64,000 nt of DNA from NCBI GenBank assembly GCA_964016885.1, contig OZ024741.1, positions 162,564,001 to 162,628,000 of the forward strand, given 5' to 3'. The DNA comes from Eledone cirrhosa (lineage: Eukaryota). Every line of letters begins with the position of its first letter. The first letter of the stretch is position 1. Position numbers and translations under genes: made by a program. The notes under the pieces are model-generated. The model was given only the letters and a program-made list of their open reading frames with translations, did no database searches and had not been told where the DNA came from. This document shows, one piece after another, positions 15,686 to 59,701 of this stretch.

Positions 15686-17191
15686 CTATAAAGTGCAAAA
15701 AAGGCGTCGCGTTGAAGGCGTCGCGAGTGACCGAAATGGGACCTTAAGAATATTATAAATAACACCTACTTCCGTAGGTGTATGATAGAGTTTTTGTTGT
15801 GTTGTGTTTGTTTTTGTTTGTTGTTCTTGTGCGTGTTTGCGTTTTGTAGTACGTGTTATGTTTTGGGGAGGAGTGGGTTTTTTTAATTGTGATGTTTGTT
15901 CTGTTTGTGCTGGTGGTTGTGTGTTTGTGGCATTTTTGTTAATGTGGTGCCTTTTTTTTTTCCTTTTCACCTGTTGAAAGGGTTCTCCCTCGTCGTCACT
16001 GGGTGGCGTTGATACGGAGTCCTCTTCCGTGTTGTTGGGGAGGGGTATATTTTGGGGTTTTGTTGTGGTTGCTTTTGTATTTGTTTTAGGTGGGGAGGGG
16101 TTGGGTGGAACAGTGTTTTGTGTTGTTATTTTTCCGTGTGTATGTAGTGGTGGTGGTGGTGGTGGTGGTGGTGGTTGTGTTGTTGTGTTCGGGGTTGGTA
16201 GTAGAGCCTTTTTTTTTTGACTCGTTAATTGAGGACAGGCAGCCCTCAGGTGACCCCTGCTTAAGCAGTGGTAACATGACGGCCGCCTTCCCTCCACTGA
16301 AATGTTTATATAAGTTAGCCCGTCCAGAGGCACGCGTTGTGGGATATTCGCTATTCGTTCTGGGCTCATTTGCACCAGAACTTCTACGGTGGTCCCACCA
16401 AATACACCTCCGGAGGACTTTCCTATTGAAATTATCTTGTCTTCGTCAAAGTTAATTATTCCACATAGTATCCACCAAATGTTTACATTTGGTGTGATAC
16501 TCATTATTTTTATTCTTTGTGTCCTTTTTCCCCTGTATGTGGGGTAAAAGGTGAAGCGGGGGGACACAATGGGTGCTACCGAGTACTTTTGAGCTGTTGA
16601 CTGGTTGTTCATTAGCACCGAAATGCTACCAAACAGTTTACCTTTTTGTATGAAGGTTAAGTCCTTCATTGCATCTTTTAGAACCAGCTCAATTTCATTT
16701 TGTGATAATTGAGCTGGTTTTCTTGTTTCGTTTGATATTGTCCTGAAAACCACAGTTTTCAGGACAGCCTCTCTACATAATTCCTGTGGAGAATTGATGC
16801 TAAAAGCACCGTTTTCGCCAAAAGTCACGAATTGTTTTGCGTCTTGTAATAGTTGTTTAGCATTTGTTATGTCTATTGGCGTGTATAGTTCGTTTTTTTT
16901 TACGGTCTGTGCGAATGTTGTTTTGGTGTTGTTGTCTTTTTTGTTACTGTCACTGTTGGTAATATTGGTGTTGCTATTGTTGCAGTTGTTGGTTGTGGTG
17001 TTATTGTCATTGTTCTTGTTGTTGGTGCTGGTATTATTTACCGGGTTTGGTTTCGTGGTTTCGATATTTTTCACGTTTTTCGATGATGCGAGTGGGGAAG
17101 GCTGCAAGCTTTGTACTCCTACCTTCCCTCCACCACTTTTCTTACTGGGCGTGGCACTCACGACAGTGTGCGAGGTGGAAATGGCATCCAT
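15686..17191 (-). CDS. Gag-like ORF1 of an L1/Tx1-type non-LTR retrotransposon (~501 aa from MDAIST)
   Basis: TFAQTVK motif, RRM-like middle region, CX2CX4HX4C knuckle (CYHCLSRGHLRAAC), Pro/Thr-rich tail, FQQVKRKKKR basic motif; APE remnant downstream on the same strand. Confidence 0.8.
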   Translation of the reverse strand: MDAISTSHTVVSATPSKKSGGGKVGVQSLQPSPLASSKNVKNIETTKPNPVNNTSTNNKNNDNNTTTNNCNNSNTNITNSDSNKKDNNTKTTFAQTVKKNELYTPIDITNAKQLLQDAKQFVTFGENGAFSINSPQELCREAVLKTVVFRTISNETRKPAQLSQNEIELVLKDAMKDLTFIQKGKLFGSISVLMNNQSTAQKYSVAPIVSPRFTFYPTYRGKRTQRIKIMSITPNVNIWWILCGIINFDEDKIISIGKSSGGVFGGTTVEVLVQMSPERIANIPQRVPLDGLTYINISVEGRRPSCYHCLSRGHLRAACPQLTSQKKKALLPTPNTTTQPPPPPPPPPLHTHGKITTQNTVPPNPSPPKTNTKATTTKPQNIPLPNNTEEDSVSTPPSDDEGEPFQQVKRKKKRHHINKNATNTQPPAQTEQTSQLKKPTPPQNITRTTKRKHAQEQQTKTNTTQQKLYHTPTEVGVIYNILKVPFRSLATPSTRRLFCTL

Positions 17192-17874
17192 TGCCACCAA
17201 GTCTACAGTTTTTAGATGAAAATTGAAAATTTCGCCCCAGAAAGGGGCGAAAATTAGTTGACTCAGCGTCTGACGGCCCAGGCAAGGGGTTAAACTAAAC
17301 AATGTTATTAAATTGAGCAATAAACTCACAGTTTTTTTTACAACAATCCGTAAAATCCGGAGCAAAGTAAATCACGTCTATATCAAGTGGTAATTGATAT
17401 AGAGAGGGGTACAGGAAGAGAGTTCCTTGTAGTAGATATAGAGAGGAAGAGAGTTTCGTGTAGTAGATATACAGAGGGCAGAGTTTGATATTAATTGACA
17501 TAGAGAGGAGGATTGGGAGAGAGTGTTGTATGGTTAATGAAGAGGGAGGGGTCGGCAATGAATAGATGTGAGGATAGATAGAGGTATGTATTGTTAGATA
17601 TAGAGAGGGGGAGAGTTTGGTAGTGATGGATAGAGTGAGAGTGAATGAGAGAGAGAGAGAGTGTTGTACGGTAGTTTCTCCCCAAACTACCACATATCTA
17701 TTTGGATATCATTTACAATTTATGTACATGTTATGTTTATCACATATCAAAGTTTTCTGATCATTTTAAAGTGCAAAAGCTAAACTAATCACTCAACTAA
17801 ATTGACCAAATTTGGCCCAATTCATAAATGCTTCCACCGCCCGTGTTTATGTATGTAAGGGGTTTGGAATACCA

Positions 17875-42923: not shown

Positions 42924-45900
42924 TATCTGTTATTTTAATAAATATTTGCTCTACGGTTCTTATATATTTGATATATATTTATCCTTATCGAACCCTCTTT
43001 GGATTTTAGTCTTCAAATTTATTATTATTACTATTTGGCTCCCTCGGTTGAGCACTCTACTGACTTATATTCATCATGCAGAAACAACATCTGAATATTT
43101 CTACAAAGAACATACCCGTACCAAGCAGGAAAACATACCTAAAACTCCTGATTCAGAAAACAGACGCGTTCATTAAAAAGTTGCGTTGGCGTGCCTTTTA
43201 TTTCGATAATCCGCGTAAAGCAGACAACAAACAGGATAAATTTGGATTTAAAACCTATAATTACCCCCCGTGTAACCCAGCATTGCTACCCTTCGAAAAT
43301 GATGTCTTGGAACTCATTCGGAGTATCAAATTTCGGAATAGGAGCAATTCCTTCCAGCAAGACCTGAAGAATAGAATTCGTTCTATTAAGGATTATAACG
43401 CCGTGCACGTCCATTCCAACAAAACTGGCAACCTATATCAAGTGGAGCGCAGTACTTACCATCAACTACTACATAATGCTGTAACTAAGGATTACCGTAA
43501 AACTAATCGGTGCGTCATCAATGAAATCAACGATGCTGGGTTTAAAATCACATCTGATCTCAACATCCTGGACCGGACCGAACCTCTGGACCCTATTTCT
43601 CCCCACTTTACCCTGAAGGATCAGAAATCCAATTTTCCGAACAACCCCTCTATTCGGCTTATTAACCCTACGAAGTCCTATTTAGGTAGACTTAGTAAAA
43701 CGATTCTTGATAGAATTATACCTGAAATTAGAAGTTTGGCCCCTCTTGCACTGTGGAACAATTCTTTCGCGGTGATTGATTGGTTCAACGGCATATGTAA
43801 CAAGGAACATTGCCGTTTTATCCAATTCGACATCAACAATTACTACTCCTCCATCACTTTACCACTTCTCCTTAGAGCTATCAATTTCGTTAAAACACTC
43901 ACAGTGGTTAAGGATTTCGAAGTTGATGTCATCCTCAATGCCCGAAAGTCGGTGATTAATTTCGACGACTCTATTTGGATTAAAAAATCCAATAGTACCC
44001 CATTCGACGTGAGTATGGGCGCCAGTGATTCTGCGGAGGTTACTGATCTTATAGGCCTTTTCCTTCTTTTCTCTATCAAGGACGAATTCCCCAACGCGGG
44101 CGGTGGTTTGTACCGTGACGATGGTCTTTTGACCATGACTAAGTGCGGACCCCGTGCTTGCGACAGGTTCAGAAAAGAACTCACAGCCTTTTTAAAGGCT
44201 TCAACCTCTCGATACAGGTTGAGGCCAATCTCTCGGTCGTTAATTACCTCGACGTTACCCTCAATTTATTGAATGGGTTGTATTACCCGTATAGAAAGCC
44301 GAATGATACGCTTAATTACATAAGTAAGCATTCCAACCATCCTGCCAGCATAACCAAGAACCTGGTAAGAAACGTTTCGTTGAAGCTTTCCCGTCTTTCC
44401 ACCAACGAGCGTATTTTCAACGACCATTCCACTTATTACAATGAAGCTCTTGCTCGAAGTGGATTTGTCGATAAGGGAGCATATACAGAGTACGAAAATA
44501 GACCTAGAAGAAATAGATCCCGTCGCATTTGTTGGTATAACCCACCATATAATATGGAGGTGGCCATGCCATTAGCTAAGATCTTTCTTTCCCTTATTAC
44601 GAAGCATTTTCCCCCTACACATAAATATAGTAACATTTTTAATAGAAATACTATTAAAATTTCTTACTCTACGACTCCTAACCTTGCACATAACATCACA
44701 GCTTCAAATTTAGCTAAACTACCTAGCCGTAGGAACACGTGCAACTCTGTAGTTAGTACTAACTGTAATTGTAGAAATCGGGTTGATTGCCCCCTATCCG
44801 GGAAATGCCTCTCTAGTAGCATTGTCTACAAATGTAAGGTTGTAACACCCACGTCCCGTAGGGCCTACATCGGGTTAACCGCCAATAGATTCAAGCAGCG
44901 TCTTTACATGCATACCCATTCTTTTCGTTACCCTCTAAGAAGGAATATGACGTCACTTTCAGCTTATATCTGGAGTCTAAAAGACAACCACACCCAATAT
45001 AAGTTACACTGGGAGATCCTAGCTAGGGCTAGATCGTATAACGGAAATAAAAGACCATGTGACCTCTGCGCCGCTGAGGCCCTGGAAATACTCTACGCCA
45101 CAGACCACATTTTAAACAAAAAATGTGAGGCAATTTCGGCTTGTAAACATAAATTGCACAAAACTTTCCTGTATTACAGCCCCACGTTATACCTTAACGG
45201 ATAGTACGATCTATACGTGGATATTTTACGTCTTGATGTGGTAGCTAAGTATATGTTTTGTTTATACCATTACTTATTTGCATAGGTAAGTATATATTAC
45301 CCGTACGTTTTGCGAAAGTACGTATACCTTCTCGTACGTTTATTTGATTGTTTATGTTATGGCGTATAATTTTATATATTCTGGTACATATGGTTTGACT
45401 ATGTGTATACGGGAGTTTTGCGTCTGTGTGAGTATGCAGGTTCGTACGTATGTAGGGTGTGTGTATATGTGTACTTCATGTTTTGGTTGACTTACGTCTC
45501 CGTATATTCGTGTATTTACATGTAGGTATGTGTGTGCGCTTGTTATATACGTATTTATTTATTTATATACGTTTATATAATTATTTATTTATTGGTATAC
45601 ACGCATACACACACACATATTTATATGTGCGTGGTTTTGTATACCTATGGTAAGCGTTTTGCGTATGCTTCTGTATGTACGTATTTGTTTGCGTGTACGT
45701 ATTTATTTATTTCTATTACTTCTGTATTGTATTTATTTACTTTGTTCTTAACTCTGTAGCGGAGATTCATTCGGTCTCCTAGTTAGAATTTTAGTCTACG
45801 ACTTCTGCTATACCACTTACGTGGTTTTGTCTTTGCGTGCTATTGTTTTCAACGCTCCACATATGACGTATTATCTTCGTTTTTTTCGTTCATTGCCAGA

Positions 45901-47864: not shown

Positions 47865-50800
47865 ATATATATATATATATATGCAAGAAGCAAAGACAAT
47901 TTCAGTGATATGAAAGATTTCCTGGTGGAAGTTCAGGTTCACTTCGTGTTGGTATCCAGTTTCGCGGTGAAAATCAAATTAGAAATTTGAGAGGTCCACG
48001 TAAGCATTGATATATCTATATATATATATATATGTATATGTAAAAGGTAAACAGAAATAACAACACAATCGGTACAGTATATGGAAGGAATATATTAGGT
48101 TAGGGTTGTACCGATTGTGTTGTTATTTCTGTTTATCTTTTACATATATATATAAACGCTTACGTGGATCTCTCAAATTCGTTGGATTTTCTAATTGGAT
48201 TTTCACCCCGAAACTGGATACCAACCCGGAGCATACCTGAATTTACACCAAGAAATCTTTCGTATCACTAAAATTTTCTTTGCTTCTTGCATTTAAATAT
48301 ACCACGACTCTCTATCACTTTTCCTCTACTACAATCTTCTTACACCACCTTCTTCTCCGTCTATTTTTCACTCCCACCCTGTAACTTCAACATGCCCAAT
48401 CTCAAAACTTTTCTCCGCTAGCTCCATTCTACTCTCAAACGCTTCCTCCAACCTCTCCCCCCCCTATATGCATCCAATCCTCCCTGCATTTCTCCAACCT
48501 CATTTTCACCAAAACACAATATAATAGTCACATTACCTTTTTAAGTCGCTGTCTCCACCACCTACTCATTCCCCGAGGTTTCCGCCTCAAGTTCCACCCA
48601 CCTCTTACTCTGCTCTCACCACTGAGCCCATCCTTATCCGCTCCTCTCGCCAGCTCATGCGGTCAACTATCCGATCTACTCTCGCCAAAATCTGTTCTCT
48701 CCATCCTCGCCCAATCCCTTATCCAATTCATCCTTCACCTCAATCGCCTCCTTTTCAATTTCCTCACTTCCATAAAAAACCATAAACGCCACTAACTCCC
48801 CCCCTCCCAACTGCCGTCACCACCCATACTCATTTCATCTTCAACCCTAACCCCTCTATCCCGTCACCTAACAGCCCCTTTCCTCTCCCCACCACTGAAT
48901 CTGCACACGCTTTTCCCAACCACCTTAACCCCTCCGCCTCCGCCCCTTTCACTCTCTCACGTTCCTGCACTGTAGTCACCATACCCCAGGACCTACCACT
49001 CTCCGAAGCTGAACGCTCCCTCCTCGCCCGTGGTTTGCGTTTTATACCAACCACATCTACCTATGACGAGTTCCGCATACGTGCCGATATCGAAGGGTTC
49101 TTCTGTCGATTAAAGATGAAAGCTTTTTTTCAAGACACGCCATCATCGTCACAGACAGATGACTTCACTCGTCTCAGTCGCCGACAATCACATTGGACGC
49201 CGAGCTCTGGCCAGTTCAGCACCCTCGATTCCTTTGTCGATACTTGCCGGCGCACTGTGAACCGGTTCCGTTTCTACCAGCATTCTCGTCGCTCTAACAT
49301 CACGCGGGCTGAGCTATCCACTCTTCGCTACCTTCGGTGTCGCGATGACATTGTCATCAAAACCGCTGACAAAGGTGGCGCTGTGGTGGTTTGGAGCGTT
49401 GACCTCTATAGGGCTGAAGCTACGATAACCTTTTTTACCACCCTTTATCCTCCGACCCCACTCCTGGCTATCAACAACTCGTGCCTCCACCATATACCAG
49501 CTCATCTCCTCTCTCCTACCCCCCCACAGTCACCAACCTTATTGTACGCACCCTTCGCACACCCACCATCTACTTCCTCCCCAAAATGCACAAACAAAAT
49601 AATCCCGGCCGTCCTATCGTTTCCGCATGCAACTGCCCCACCGAGACCATTTCTGAATATTTAGACACCATCCTCGCCCCGTTAGTCGTCAATATCCCCT
49701 CCTACATCCACAATATCAATCACGCCCTTAGACTCTTCAACTCCAGCTCCTTCCCTATTGGCCCCTCTCGCCTTCTCTTTACCCTGGACATCACCTCTAT
49801 ACTGTCATCCCTCATGATTACGGCCTCCGCGCTCTCCAACATTTTTTAGACTTACGCCCTACCTCTTACCCCAACACTACCACTCTTCTCCGTCTGGCTT
49901 AGGTTGTTCTGACCCTCAATGGCTTTTCCTTTTCGGGTGAATTCTATCAGCAGGTCTCTGGGATAGCGATGGAAATTAGAATGGGTCCAAACTATGCCAT
50001 TTTGTTTGTTGGCTACGTCGAAGCCCAGATCTCCCAGTACGCTGGACCGACTCCTTAGCTATACGGTCGTTATATCGACGATTGTATCGGCGCCACCTCT
50101 CTATAACGAGAACAGCTTGACTGCTTTCTATCTTTTGTCCCATCTTTCCTGCTTTTACTTTCACCGCCTCCGTCTCCGATTCTTTTATCCCTTTTCTAGA
50201 TATCTCTCTATCTATCAATCACTCTCACCACACTCTCTCTACTTCCATCTTCTATAAACTAACAGACTCCCACTCTTACCTCGACTTCACCTCCTCCCAT
50301 ACAACCCACACCAAACACTCGATACCCTATTCCCAATTCCTCCGTCTTCGTCGGCTCTGTAGCCAGGACGACGATTTTGAAACCCATTCCCTTCACATGG
50401 CTTCCCGCTTCATCCAGCGTGGATATCCCCCCACCCTGATCCAAGCTGCTCTCACCCGCGCCCGTGAAACCTCACCAGTGCCCTCTCAACACCTGCGTTC
50501 CTTTCCCTCTCACCTACCACCCCGGTGACATATCCCCCGTTCCTTCCGCACCCTCTCTTCTGACCCCGCCATTTCTCGCTTTTTCCCATTACTGCATTTA
50601 AGCGCGCCCGCAACCTCCGCAACCTCCTGGTACGCAGTTCCTTCTCGTCCTCTCCCACGACTCCACCCCGCTCTCATCCTTGTTCTCGTTCCCACTGCAA
50701 CACTTGTCCCTTCATTTTCACCTTCACCACTCTCACAGGCCCTAACGGGTCATTCCGTATCCGCCACTCTTTCACCTGAACATCCACCCACGTTGTCTAT

Positions 50801-51782: not shown

Positions 51783-52223
51783 TATATATATATATAAAAC
51801 ATATGGGTATAATATGTACACGTACACACACAGCATTTTACAAGTAGTTACTTCCGTGTTGACTAGTTTAAAATATATTATATGCATTTACTCTCTAAGG
51901 CGAACATTTAAGGAAATGGTAGTGATTTGATTTTATCTTCGCAAATTTGAAAAATAATTTGATTTTTTAAACAAATTCTCAGAACAAGTTCAACTGTTCA
52001 TTGTTTTCAATCACTCATTATCAAATTGACCCGTTTATATCGATTTTATCGATCTCAGAAGAATTTGAACTTAAAATGTAGAAAGACGAAACTACATACT
52101 TAATTCTCTCTATATGTTAATTTATTTGTAATTGATGCAACATGATCGAATGATTAAGAAGTATGCTTCGCAATCACTATGTTCCTGGTTCGATCCTACT
52201 GCTTTCATTTTGGCCAATTGTTA

Positions 52224-53471
52224 TCAATAGTATCGACACTTACTTTGTGGTGACGTCATGGGCAAAAGTTGACTACCATAGTTATGACTCATGTCTTGTA
52301 ATTGACATCGCATGTTATTGTCATTTAACATACTAACGACAAACCGTGACCTGTGAGGTCTTGAGCCCTTATCTTCCATTGTCCCCTGTCGAGCTGTGCA
52401 TTGTAAGTAACATATTGGGCACTTGTCATCTACCATAGTCTCATGGTCATCTGCCATAGTCTCGCGTCGACCATTGCATTTTAAGCAACGTCTTGAGCAC
52501 TTCTCTTCCTTAGTCTCGCGTAGACCCATGCATTTTAAGTAACGTCTTGAGCACTTCTCTTCCTTAGTCTCGCGTGGACCCAAGCATTGTAAGAAACATC
52601 TTCGGCACTTGTTATCTTTCCTAGTCTCGTGTCGACCCGTGCATTGTGAGTGACGTCTTGGGCTATTGGCATTTAACAGAGTAACGAGGACCCGTAACTT
52701 GGGAGGTCTTGAGCTCTTGTGATCTACCATAGTCTCGCGTGGACCCATGCCTTGTAAGCAACGTCTTGGGCACTTGTCATCTTCCCTAGTCTCGTATCGA
52801 CCTGTGTATTGCGAGTGACGTCTTGGGCTATTGTCATTTATCAGAACAATGTCAAAACATGGCTTGCAACGTCTTGAGCTCTCGTCATCTTCCATAGTCT
52901 CGCGTCGACCCATGCCTTGTAAGTAACGTCTTGGGCACTTGTCATCTTCCTTAGTCTCGTATCGACCTGTGTATTGCGAGTGACGTCTTGGGCTATTGTC
53001 ATTCATCAGAACAATGTCAAAACATGGCTTGCAACGTCTTGAGCTCTCGTCATCTTCCATAGTCTCGCGTCGACCCATGGATTGTACGACACGTCTTGAG
53101 CTCTCGTCATCTTCCATAGTCTTGCGTCGACCCATGCATTGAAAGTAATGTCTTGGGATCTCGTCATCTTCCATAGTGTCGCGTCGACCCATGCATTGTA
53201 AGTAACGTCTTGGGATCTCGCCATCTTCCATAGTCTCGCGTCGACCCATGCTCTGTAAGTAACGTCTTGGGATCTCGTCATCTTCCATAATCTCGTGTTG
53301 AGCCATGCATTGTAAGACTCCTCTTGGGCTCTCGTCATCTTCCATAGTCTCATGTAGACCCTTGCATTGTAAGTAACGACTTGGACTATTAAAGTTTAAC
53401 AGACCAGCGGAAAGAGATGCCTTGTAACGTCTTGAATTCTCGTCACCTTCCATAGTCTCGTATCGATCCAT
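52224..53471 (-). CDS. Uncharacterised 415-aa tandem-repeat protein (19-aa unit MGRRETMEDDESSRRYLQC)
   Basis: Open 1248-bp frame across diverged 57/54/51-bp units; GAGGCATGG start context; upstream in-frame stop; splice-acceptor-like TTCTTTTGAATTACAG ending at 53532. Confidence 0.6.
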   Translation of the reverse strand: MDRYETMEGDENSRRYKASLSAGLLNFNSPSRYLQCKGLHETMEDDESPRGVLQCMAQHEIMEDDEIPRRYLQSMGRRETMEDGEIPRRYLQCMGRRDTMEDDEIPRHYFQCMGRRKTMEDDESSRRVVQSMGRRETMEDDESSRRCKPCFDIVLMNDNSPRRHSQYTGRYETKEDDKCPRRYLQGMGRRETMEDDESSRRCKPCFDIVLINDNSPRRHSQYTGRYETREDDKCPRRCLQGMGPRETMVDHKSSRPPKLRVLVTLLNANSPRRHSQCTGRHETRKDNKCRRCFLQCLGPRETKEEKCSRRYLKCMGLRETKEEKCSRRCLKCNGRRETMADDHETMVDDKCPICYLQCTARQGTMEDKGSRPHRSRFVVSMLNDNNMRCQLQDMSHNYGSQLLPMTSPQSKCRYY

Positions 53472-53632
53472 GCCTCGTGAGTGAAATTGGATGGACAGAA
53501 AATGGTTGGAAGCTCGTCAGATGGACTGTATCTGTAATTCAAAAGAACAACCTTGTCACACACTGATTCTCTACCGAGGTGGACAAAATAAAGTACTAAT
53601 CATGTAGTAGGGTGCATTTACTTCACTCATCT

Positions 53633-53985
53633 TAGAGGTTCTCAAAGTGGTTGGTCGCTACAGCCCACTGAGGGCATTGAGAAGGCCCGGGGGGGGGGCT
53701 GAGGCCTAAGGTAGTGGGGGGGGGGGGAGTATAGATGATATAATAGTGTATTAAATATCAAATGATACATATATAATATAATAATTCAAAGTAAAAAATA
53801 TATAAAATTTATTTATACATAGTATATATTATATTATTTATTATATATAAATTGATGATTTTATTTATTATATATTATTTACAATTTGCGTGTAGGTAGT
53901 TCTCTCTGGAAATAGGGGTGGGGGTGCTGAGGGTATTACGTAGCCGGGAAGGATGGCGGTGGCCTCAAAAGTTTGAGAACCTCTG
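53633..53985. mobile_element. hAT-type MITE
   Basis: TIR TAGAGGTTCTCAAA / TTTGAGAACCTCTG; 8-bp TSD ACTCATCT / ACTTATCT. Confidence 0.85.
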
Positions 53986-55905: not shown

Positions 55906-56129
55906 GTGTACTATGTATGTATAGTGTACTATTATTATTATTATTATTGTTACTATTATTATTACATTTTTTTTTTTTTTTTTTTCAATTCAATGATGTT
56001 CCAGAACAATATAAAAGAGATAATTGGCAATTTAGGTTCTGGAACAAAAAAAGATAATTGGCAATAAGGGAAGGGGCCCCAGGTTATCACAGCCTGGGCC
56101 CGCTCGTCATCGTGCCATTGTAATAGAGC

Positions 56130-59100
56130 CAAACAAGGCATTTAGTCTTGGCTGCTGGAACGTACGGACGCTGCTTGACAGGGATTCCTTGGAGCGTCCT
56201 GAACGAAGGACTGCTCTTGTTGCAAAGGAGCTTCGACGTTACGATCTTGCCATCGTAGCTTTATCTGAGACGAGGTTAGCTGGAGATGGTCATCTTACAG
56301 AATGTTGTGGAGAATATACATTCTTCTGGAAAGGAAGAGATGAAGGAACGAGAAGAGAGGCTGGGGTAGGATTTGCTGTTAAGACTGTACTTGTGAATAA
56401 ATTAGAAGATTTCCCAGTAGGGATTAGTGAGCGTCTTATGTCCATGAGAATTCCGCTGGACAAGGGAAGATATGCGACCCTGGTGAGTGTGTATGCTCCA
56501 ACTATGAATTCTGTCGATGAAGAAAAAGTGTCCTTTTACCATGCCTTTAAAGGTGTTTTAAGAAATATCCCTCAGGCAGTCATCGTGCTTGGTGACTTTA
56601 ATGCTAGAGTGGGTAGGGATTTTAACACATGGAATGTAATCGGAAGGCATGGGGTGGGAAAATGTAACAACAATGGTATGCTCCTGCTGCAGATGTGTGA
56701 GGAGCTGGATCTATGTGTTACCAACACCATGTTCCAACAAAAGAACAAATTCAAGACCACATGGATGCATCCTGCATCTAAGGAATGGCATCTTTTGGAC
56801 TACGTCCTAGTCAGGATGCGTGACAGACAGGATGTGCAGTGTGTTCGTGCTCTTCGTGGAGCTGAGTGCTGGACGGACCACCGCCTGGTAGTGCAAAAGT
56901 GAAACTAATCACTAAACGTAAAATCCGGGCTCCTGGTGTTGCCCTGCGCAAAAGATTGAATGCTGCTCGTCTTAAGGATAAAAATGTGAAGAGGACATTG
57001 GAAGAAGAGATGCAGGCTGCAGATCTTGGTGCGGATTGGCCGACCCTTAAAAAGTCGGTTTATGATGTAGGCAGGTGTTTTCTGGGATTGGTGCAGAGAA
57101 AACATCAGGACTGGTTTAATGAGAATGATGTACATATAGAAGACTTGTTGGCTGATAAGAGGCGTGCTCTGTCACGCAACTTGACGGCAAAACCACAGGA
57201 GAGGAATACGTTGCATGAGGAACTCAAGGATGTAAAATCACGTGTTAGGCGGAGTCTTTCTCAGATGAAGGATCAGTGGTGGAGTGAGAAGGCTGGTGAG
57301 ATACAAACTGCGTCAGATTCCAATAACACAAAGCTGTTGTACAGTCTCTTGCGTGAGGTTTATGGACCGTCTTCTTCTCTGGTGACACCGCTTCGCAGCA
57401 AGGATGGCAAAGAACATCTTCGTGACTCACAAGGAATTCTACGAAGGTGGCGAGAGCACTTTGATGATCTTTTGAATCAGCCGTCTGTCGTCAGTGAAGA
57501 TTTCCTCAATTTAATTCCAGAGAGTCCTGTGAAAGTAGCTCTCGCAGAACCTCCGACGCTTGTGGAGGTTGCAGTGGCTATTTCGAAGCTGAACAGTGGA
57601 AGATCTCCAGGTATGTATGGCATACATGCTGAGCTCCTACAATATGGTGGTGAGAGACTCCTGCAACATCTTCACTCTTTGTTTGGCAGGATATGGGCTA
57701 ATGAATCCGTACCTGAGGACTGGAGAGATGCAGTAATGGTGGTCTTGTACAAGGGAAAGGGTAACAGGAATGATTGTGGGAACTACAGAGGTATATCATT
57801 GCTTTCTGTTGTAGGGAAAGTTTTATGTAGGGTGCTTCTGGACCGTCTGCTGACACACATTGCAGATTGTGTTCTTCCTGAAAGTCAATGTGGTTGTCGT
57901 GCTTGACGCGGCACTACTGATATGATCTTCTCAGCTAGACAGCTCCAGGAGAAGTGCATGAAACAAGGCTTGGATCTGTATCAGGTTTTTGTAGATCTGA
58001 CAAAAGCTTTCGATACTGTTAACAGAGATGCATTATGGAAGGTTCTCCAGAAACTTGGTTGCCCTGATAAGTTCCTTGCTTTAGTTAGGTCTTTCCATGA
58101 CGACATGAAGGCTTGGGTTAATGTCGGAAGTAACATGTCGGAGCCTATCTCAGTAAAAAATGGAGTGAAACAAGGGGATATTCCAGCACCGACCCTGTTT
58201 GCCATATACTTTGCAATGGTTTTCTGTATTGCATTCAGGAATTGCGAGCATGGTGTTTACATCCGATATCGAACCTCAGGCAGCATATTTAACATCAGGC
58301 ACTTTGCTGCAAAGACAAAAGTATTTACATCAATCATAAGAGACCTCTTGTATGCAGATGATTGCGATCTTGTAGCGCACACTGAGAGTGTGATATGCAG
58401 CACATTTTGAATGCATTTTCTGACGCTTGCACTGCCCTAGGATTGACTGTCAGTCTCAAGAAAACCGTCGTCATGTACCAACCTGCCCCTGGTAAGCAGT
58501 ACACTGAACCAAACATCTATGTGTATGGTAAACGACTTGGAGTGGTTGTTCAGTTTGTCTACCTGGGAAGCACTGTCAATCGATACAGCAACCTTGACAG
58601 TGAAATCTCACTTGGGATTAGGAAAGCAAGTGATGCTTTCGGAAAGCTAGAAAGGCGACTCTGGGGTCGGCGAGACATATTCAGGAGGACAAAGGTAAAG
58701 GTGTACAGGGCATGTGTGCTCTCGTGTCTTCTTTATGCCTGCGAGACCTGGGTCACATATCGACACCACCTTAAGCAATTGGAACGTTTCCATCAAATGT
58801 GTCTCAGACGGATCCATGGCGTTCACTGGAGGGACCACATCAGTGATGTCGAGATTTTGGAAAGCTCTATGTGTGACAGTATAGAAGCTCTTGTGCTTAA
58901 GCAACGACTCCGTTGGAGTGGTCACCTTGCCAGGATGAAGGATTCTAGAATACCAAAACAACTCTTTTATGGAGAGTTGGTTAAAGGAAAACGACCGCCA
59001 CATAAACCAAAAAAGAGGTATAAGGATTCCTTGAAAGCCTCTCTGAAAGACGCTAACATCTCTGCTGATACATGGGAAAATATTGCTGCTGATCGTAATA

Positions 59101-59701
59101 AATGGAGAAAGACTGTATATGAGGGAAAAGTTGCCTTTGAGGCATCTCGAATCGCATACGAGAAAGTAAAGCGGGATGTGAAGAAGGGCATTGCTGTTGC
59201 ACTTCCAGACGGCGAGGGTCCTCCTATGGTGCTGACATGCAGCGTCTGTGCGAGACTCTGCCTAAGCAAAGCTGGACTCGAAAGTTATCTTCGCAGTCAT
59301 AAAGTAAGACCAGTGGTTGACTACCAGGCTGCTGTTGGAGATGCTACTCATCATGCTTGCCAAACATGTGGTAGAGAATGTAAATCAGCAGGAGGGCTCA
59401 AGCGACATGCAAAAGTACACGAACTCCAACCACAGCCGACTATTCCCGGTGAATGTTTTGGTTGCCGACTCTGTGCAAGACATTTTAGATCATTGGCTGG
59501 TCTAAAAAACCACATTCGATCGCAGCGCTGTTAGTTGCTATCGTGTGTGTGTGTGTATATAGATATGTTTATGTGTGTGCGTGTATGTGTATATATATAT
59601 GTTTATGTATATTATTATTGTTGCTGTCGTTATTATTATTGTTATTATTATTATTATTATTGTTATTAATATATGTGTATGTGTATATGTATGTATGTGT
59701 A

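What the first reader, a model, noticed from the sequence alone, without database searches (positions are those of the whole stretch)
52224..53545. Orphan tandem-repeat protein with a frame-preserving higher-order array
Seen: about 21 diverged units of 57 bp (19 aa), 54 bp and 51 bp keep one frame open for 415 codons, and every length change is a multiple of 3. Charged Arg/Met/Asp/Glu/Cys units are punctuated by hydrophobic 17-aa units (KPCFDIVLMNDNSPRRH), giving a 165-bp higher-order repeat (52801 vs 52966). The ATG has a strong context (GAGGCATGG), an in-frame stop lies upstream, and a polypyrimidine-AG acceptor sits about 60 nt upstream. No TE hallmark is visible. Inference: a lineage-specific, single-coding-exon structural or disordered polyampholyte protein with periodic Cys and RRxS/T kinase-type sites. 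It is block-copolymer-like in concept but has no reflectin motif.
Basis: partly seen in the sequence, partly recalled or inferred. Interest (0 to 1): 0.75.

Follow-up and report, generated by a model that had tools for sequence, protein, structure and literature searches.

The report
SINE-born repeat with open reading frame
A 57-letter piece from the middle of one short jumping element (a SINE) was copied about 22 times in place, and its opposite strand reads as 415 codons without a stop, which likely (about even odds, no RNA seen) marks a newborn gene for a charged, floppy protein rather than chance.

Summary
The array and its 415-codon minus-strand frame (53471-52224) are real, but 'no TE hallmark' is wrong. 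The array lies inside one tRNA-type SINE copy: head 52134-52224 (80% to the family), about 22 copies of a 57-bp core segment, body 53443-53565 (86%). The ATG, its context, the acceptor and the upstream stop are inherited SINE letters. The frame is still unusual: only 9 of 26 dispersed SINE copies keep it open over one unit, and neutral simulations leave the array open in 0.15-0.9% of runs. The hydrophobic 17-aa blocks are the same unit read in a shifted frame (-4/-2 deletions). Against coding: no synonymous excess (7 of 53 changes), no homologue, no RNA evidence, and 8 of 24 other, mostly younger, arrays also have open frames. Verdict: SINE-derived minisatellite (shown), about 50% a de novo coding exon, about 40% neutral.

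The parts
52134..52224 (+). SINE 5' head (tRNA-type; B-box-like GGTTCGATCC at 52187-52196) running into the first, decayed core copy
   Evidence: 80.4% over 92 nt to the majority of 11 copies; 132 first-look candidates in the genome, 40 scored, all matches; ARAGORN finds no tRNA and Rfam no tRNA match
52225..52313 (+). two decayed core copies (units 21-22); gaps of -5 and -1 step round a TGA of the ancestral frame, and the ORF ends here
   Evidence: alignment to the SINE majority sequence
52314..53435 (+). 20 complete tandem units (57, 51, 54, 78 bp) derived from the 57-bp SINE core segment; order forms a 165-bp higher-order repeat (57+57+51)
   Evidence: 59-81% to the SINE segment; junction pattern found only here, 4 of 4 matches
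53443..53565 (+). last core copy (unit 0) continuing into the SINE body, cut off at 53565
   Evidence: 86.2% over 123 nt; 1543 first-look candidates, 40 scored; summed contig depth 1200-3700 at 53462-53585 vs 0-40 over the array
52224..53471 (-). 415-codon ORF antisense to the SINE; product R 60, E 37, D 33, S 31, M 26, C 25, no W; 36% charged, net charge +0.03 per residue; 9 RRx[ST] sites
   Evidence: AlphaFold2 single sequence pLDDT 33.4
53525..53545 (-). candidate 3' splice sites (AG before 53531 or 53525), inherited from the antisense SINE body, with four changes to T in the tract
   Evidence: alignment; splicing untested
52238..52243 (-). only GTRAGT donor-like site on the ORF strand, 6 codons before the stop (phase 1); not present in the SINE majority sequence
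   Evidence: use untested
52121..52126 (-). AATAAA about 100 nt past the stop, just outside the SINE head: candidate poly(A) signal
   Evidence: weak in AT-rich DNA

Best explanation
The array is a 57-bp core segment of one tRNA-type SINE copy amplified about 22 times in place, and its antisense frame has likely been kept open by selection as a young (de novo) coding exon that would give a 415-aa, predicted disordered, charge-balanced protein. Shown: SINE origin of units, flanks, ATG, acceptor and upstream stop; single locus; the antisense frame was already open in the SINE segment; the 17-aa hydrophobic blocks are the same unit shifted by a 4-bp and a 2-bp deletion. Inferred: slippage or unequal exchange between short similar ends of the segment started the array; blocks of three units were later duplicated; an unidentified upstream promoter exon splices into the antisense SINE acceptor, translation starts at the SINE's own ATG, and the message ends at the AATAAA beside the SINE head. 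Least supported step: the protein stays inside the cell (no signal or membrane segment) and acts as a phosphorylation-tunable charged scaffold through its RRx[ST] repeats; selection would act on length, frame and charge rather than exact sequence.
For: Origin. Frame: 9 of 26 dispersed copies that span the segment keep this frame open over one unit (5 of 31 copies dropped for not spanning it), and 10 of 26 have TGA at the CGA codon, against 0 of 15 long units in the array, although the other three CpG sites of the unit consensus do show C-to-T changes. Simulations on the unit tree from the SINE segment: no stop in the frame in 2-33 of 1500 runs over six settings; with indels, any of six frames open end to end in 278/30000, 70/30000 and 18/12000 runs. 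Seven control arrays with period divisible by 3 have best-frame no-stop probabilities of 0.30-1.0 (simple model) against 0.013 here, and 0 of their 11 indels is a multiple of 3; 10 of 56 indels in SINE copies are. A younger 57-bp array (L193, 92% match) already has 5 stops in its best frame. R+K rose from 10.5% to 21.6% and D+E from 10.5% to 19.9% relative to the SINE-encoded peptide.
Against: No purifying selection on residues: 7 synonymous of 53 distinct changes in the long units, expected 9.9-12.1 (P 0.02-0.15 for a deficit); pooled pN/pS 2.3 and 1.7. No true homologue among 1.84 billion representatives or in two length classes of the 5.8-billion set (the shorter class was not searched), although that set holds octopod proteins. 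Open frames in minisatellites are common here: 8 of 24 other arrays in 1.26 Mb. Without indels the most conservative simulation leaves a frame open in 575 of 6000 runs. The unit tree is rough because units are mosaics. Tandem arrays from SINE cores recur in this genome, so many trials exist. The -4 deletion alone would have broken a frame already in use. No upstream exon or promoter was identified; 122 nearby ORFs gave only transposon-type or weak sub-threshold Pfam matches.
Confidence: 0.5

Rival explanations
1. A neutral, non-coding SINE-derived minisatellite. The frame was open in the SINE segment from the start, homogenisation among units slowed its decay, and the scan picked the rare array that has not yet gained a stop.
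For: SINE origin of all signals; no synonymous excess; no homologue; 8 of 24 other arrays open, one for 321 codons; SINE-core arrays at several other loci; TE-derived minisatellites are a known class (PMC3389668 passages; PMC10702118 abstract). At 0.15-0.9% per array, 100-600 comparable arrays would give one chance case.
Against: None of the 7 control arrays analysed carries as many changes (3-26 distinct substitutions vs 81); the stop-making CpG is the one spared; every complete unit has a net length divisible by 3.
Confidence: 0.4
2. An alternative far-upstream exon or upstream ORF of the G-alpha12/13-type gene on the same strand, like the XL exon of mammalian GNAS (recalled).
For: G-alpha coding exon about 57 kb downstream on the same strand, with an acceptor and 20 open codons before its ATG; donor-like site at 52243.
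Against: The donor is phase 1 and the two acceptors need phase 2 or 0, so direct splicing is out of frame. A separate promoter-like element with a donor sits at window 2690-2485. All N-terminally complete relatives retrieved (14 of 15 sequences; one is a C-terminal piece) start at MASWLGSC with no extension.
Confidence: 0.05
3. An internal exon of a secreted precursor cut at RR sites into short amidated peptides (RR-YLQCM-G-RR) with acidic spacers.
For: 20 RR pairs and 6 GRR sites, with acidic spacers between them; the layout resembles neuropeptide precursors (recalled).
Against: No signal peptide or hydrophobic stretch in the ORF (highest 19-residue hydropathy 0.14); GRR in only 6 of 15 long units; QGMGR is already spelled by the antisense SINE; peptides are not conserved; no upstream in-frame exon found.
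Confidence: 0.05

Closest known systems
SINE-derived satellites (sSats) of squamates, PMC10702118 (abstract, outline and 2 passages seen); TE-derived human minisatellites, PMC3389668 (12 passages seen)
   Same: Tandem repeat grown from a portion of a SINE, with the rest of the element still attached.
   Different: One locus in mid-chromosome (162.6 of 416 Mb), old and diverged with a higher-order repeat, and open in one antisense frame for 415 codons. Term searches of the main texts found no 'reading frame' or 'exon' in the first paper and no 'coding' or 'exon' in the second; supplements not read.
De novo antifreeze glycoprotein gene of northern codfishes (as summarised in PMC11403476, passages seen)
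   Same: Proto-ORF model: an open repeat frame in non-coding DNA exists before expression signals are gained.
   Different: There expression and function are proven; here neither is, and unit, start, stop and acceptor all come from one SINE copy.
CORE/Ceph-type tRNA-derived SINEs (PMC5786205 and PMC4758252, passages seen)
   Same: tRNA-type head followed at once by a CTTGGG-containing segment; the papers name CCTTGGG as the conserved CORE/Ceph motif and list an Octopus CORE-SINE (OR2).
   Different: No alignment to a published consensus could be made, so the family name is open.
Reflectins (motif recalled, not from a call)
   Same: Met/Arg/Asp-rich, repetitive, predicted disordered, cephalopod-type genome.
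   Different: No repeated MD motif (MD occurs once), no Trp, no Pfam match; origin is a SINE.

Membership tests
SINE-derived minisatellite | unit homologous to part of a dispersed SINE | tested here: met
   59-81% of each of 20 units to the 57-bp segment
SINE-derived minisatellite | remaining SINE parts flank the array in order and orientation | tested here: met
   head 52134-52224, body 53443-53565, both + strand
SINE-derived minisatellite | many loci, near chromosome ends (as reported for squamate sSats) | tested here: not met
   junction pattern only here; DNA and protein searches find one locus (lower bounds); 162.6 Mb into a 416-Mb contig
CORE/Ceph SINE | tRNA-derived head followed by the CORE motif | tested here: inconclusive
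   B-box-like site and TCTTGGGCAAG in the majority sequence vs CCTTGGG(AAAG) in PMC5786205; ARAGORN and Rfam give no tRNA match
De novo protein-coding gene | traceable non-coding ancestor | tested here: met
   antisense SINE frame matches the ORF start and unit
De novo protein-coding gene | selection on the reading frame | tested here: inconclusive
   open in 0.15-0.9% of neutral runs but no synonymous excess and number of comparable arrays unknown
De novo protein-coding gene | transcription and translation | not testable with these tools
   only DNA-like runs could be laid
De novo protein-coding gene | non-coding orthologous locus in outgroups | not testable with these tools
   no related animal genomes are held
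Reflectin | repeated M/FD(X)5MD(X)5MD motif, Tyr/Trp-rich (recalled) | tested here: not met
   sequence and composition; Pfam scan to E 10 gives no such family
Neuropeptide precursor | signal peptide | tested here: not met
   highest 19-residue hydropathy 0.14; an upstream exon cannot be excluded
Neuropeptide precursor | conserved peptides between dibasic and amidation sites | tested here: inconclusive
   GRR in 6 of 15 long units; 46 of 53 changes alter residues
XL-type G-alpha first exon | in-frame splice to the G-alpha coding exon | tested here: not met
   phase mismatch for the one donor and two acceptors examined

The most novel reading that the evidence does not exclude
A whole new protein-coding exon (acceptor, start codon, 22 repeats, stop) was built from a single SINE copy: tandem amplification of its core made the length, a compensated frameshift in one unit created a second, hydrophobic block type from the same DNA, and amino-acid changes doubled the charge. 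It would be a block-copolymer protein born from a SINE, with the ancestral state still readable in many dispersed copies.
Probability: 0.45. Interest if true: 0.78.

Novelty: new variant of a known kind. Interest (0 to 1): 0.47.

Why it matters
If translated, this is an unusually clear case of gene birth: each letter of the exon can be traced to a SINE whose dispersed copies give the ancestral state and the neutral control, and it shows a route (repeat amplification plus compensated frameshift) to the block-like repeat proteins for which cephalopods are known. It can be tested with one RT-PCR and a few orthologous alleles. If not translated, it is an ordinary SINE-derived minisatellite and a warning that open frames, strong ATG contexts and acceptor-like tracts in such arrays are often inherited from the element.

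Tried and rejected
RNA: no RNA holder listed for 52100-53700; the three holders behave as genomic DNA of one sample; no conclusion on expression. Protein homologues: none at 228-728 aa or 728-2075 aa; shorter proteins only through. The best hit there, an amphioxus 56-aa perfect repeat (E 1e-67, 28%), scores 25.8 bits per unit and has no tblastn match to the SINE: read as period matching. Three weak own-genome hits (L003-L005) are unrelated minisatellites with stops. ESM Atlas could not be searched. Pfam: nothing above cut-off. Rfam: one chance-level match, E 0.98. AlphaFold2 from one sequence: pLDDT 33, uninformative; no fold search run. First unit alignment had one wrong boundary and was redone. 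In one search the three 'stop variants' listed for this array come from 51-bp units scored in the unshifted frame and are not stops in the sequence. CpG retention (3.0 per unit vs 0.85-0.98 under the SINE spectrum, about 3 under unbiased models) was not used as evidence, since GC-biased conversion could explain it. Host gene: 122 of 177 filtered ORFs up to about 75 kb beyond the window end were scanned, with no host exon found. Literature: ten searches listed no paper whose title or abstract describes a protein built by tandem amplification of a SINE core; the library lacks most subscription papers.

Full report
Observation. The ORF lies on the minus strand, ATG 53471 to TGA 52224, 415 aa. Tandem Repeats Finder gives period 57 (73% match) and 165. 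Cut in frame there are 20 complete units (11 of 57 bp, 5 of 51, 3 of 54, 1 of 78), a partial unit at the ATG and two decayed units at the end. The 165-bp repeat agrees at 152-157 of 165 bases. The host is likely an octopod: the neighbouring G-alpha matches Argonauta and Octopus proteins. Searches of the 3.0-Gb genome find the array at one place (lower bounds).

What it is. Contigs of three DNA runs pile up at depth 1200-3700 over 53462-53585, against 0-40 over the array. That stretch has 1543 first-look candidates in the genome, and many matches run into the first unit. A majority sequence of 11, then 31, copies is a tRNA-type SINE. It aligns to 52134-52224 (head, 80%), to the units through one 57-bp segment, and to 53443-53565 (body, 86%); units are 59-81% identical to the segment. 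So one SINE copy has its core amplified about 22 times. The antisense frame of the SINE majority already spells the start of the ORF and an open unit, and holds the upstream stop, the ATG context and both AG sites. The segment begins with a CTTGGG motif like the CORE/Ceph motif of PMC5786205 (passages); family not assigned. The hydrophobic 17-aa blocks are not a second sequence: all 5 align best with a 4-bp and a 2-bp gap, which shifts the middle of the unit into the next frame and back.

Is the open frame more than chance? Copies of the SINE differ from the majority at 1151 of 7848 sites and carry 56 indels, 10 of them multiples of 3 (these are top BLAST hits, so indels are undercounted). Of 26 copies that span the segment, 9 keep the frame open; 10 have TGA at the CGA codon, against 0 of 15 long units. 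On a tree of the units (120 parsimony steps) the frame stays free of stops in 2-33 of 1500 runs. With indels, and allowing any of six frames, the array is open in 278/30000, 70/30000 and 18/12000 runs; without indels and with the fewest changes, 575/6000. In 1.26 Mb sampled, 8 of 24 other arrays have an open frame, but the 7 analysed have 3-26 distinct changes and unremarkable probabilities. A younger 57-bp array has 5 stops in its best frame. The signal is thus a factor of about 100-600, against an unknown number of comparable arrays in a genome where SINE cores seed arrays repeatedly (earlier notes say the same, unchecked).

Selection on the product. There is no synonymous excess: 7 of 53 distinct changes, expected 10-12; pN/pS 2.3 and 1.7. 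Of 11 differences between the SINE segment and the unit consensus, 10 are at codon positions 1-2, and charged residues double. This fits relaxed or directional change, or neutrality; it does not fit a conserved structural protein. The product would be 36% charged, near neutral, without signal or membrane segment, with 9 RRx[ST] sites; folding gave no model. No homologue was found.

Context. A G-alpha12/13-type gene lies downstream on the same strand. Its coding exon has an acceptor, but a promoter-like element with ETS- and CRE-type motifs (names recalled) and a donor sits at window 2690-2485, relatives have no N-terminal extension, and the array's donor at 52243 is out of phase. No other host exon was found among 122 ORFs scanned. 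An AATAAA lies about 100 nt past the stop.

Mechanism. Shown: SINE insertion, in-place amplification of the core, compensated frameshift, block duplication. Inferred (about 0.5): capture of the antisense strand as a coding exon through the SINE's own acceptor and ATG, with selection keeping the frame and favouring charge. Rival (about 0.4): neutral array picked out by the scan. G-alpha exon and peptide precursor readings get about 0.05 each.

Known and new. SINE-derived tandem repeats are known (PMC10702118 abstract and two passages; PMC3389668 passages; PMC9659126 passages). Birth of a repeat gene from an open non-coding frame is known for codfish antifreeze (PMC11403476 passages). SINE fragments are common in octopus brain transcripts and lncRNAs (PMC9115989 passages; PMC12988792 passages), and octopus transposons are barely methylated (PMC9476566 passages). 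Ten literature searches listed no protein made by tandem amplification of a SINE core. No supplements were read. Rated a new variant of a known kind, interest 0.47; 0.78 if translation is shown.

Noticed in passing
L031:5080-5602 (-) and G000:C2:162418478-162419014 (-): G-alpha12/13-type gene: first coding exon just left of the window with an acceptor and 20 open codons before MASWLGSC; last coding exon about 140 kb further on. Octopod and another relative's proteins show an optional 9-aa insert after EFQL.
   Followed up: partly
window 2690-2485 (-): 45-bp duplicated element with two TGACGTCA and two GGAAGT motifs followed by a short exon-like stretch and a donor: probable promoter and 5' UTR exon of the G-alpha gene.
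   Followed up: partly
window 15686-17371 (-): 561-codon open frame with a CCHC zinc-knuckle-like motif, probably a LINE ORF1; no Pfam match.
   Followed up: no
window 43064-45204, 48786-50528, 56036-59534 (+): Broken retroelement frames; the last has an endonuclease domain.
   Followed up: no
G000:C2:75242512, C4:329060968, C8:44643890, C8:44753622, C9:32606637: Other tandem arrays built on the core of a related SINE; 290 pattern matches in all, 100 listed.
   Followed up: partly
L113:327-1291: 48-bp minisatellite, 20 copies, 86% match, with a frame open for 321 codons; probability about 0.27-0.30, so unremarkable.
   Followed up: yes
window-relative 117028-124110 (L016-L017): 424-bp units 100% identical on both sides of a short break: very young array or assembly artefact.
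   Followed up: no
window-relative 184744-186396 (L023): 310-bp tandem array, 99% match; same unit length as hammerhead arrays in earlier notes on this genome.
   Followed up: no
window 53566-53984: A piece of a second SINE-like repeat cuts off the SINE body, followed by an element with short inverted ends at about 53634 and 53984 (read by eye).
   Followed up: no
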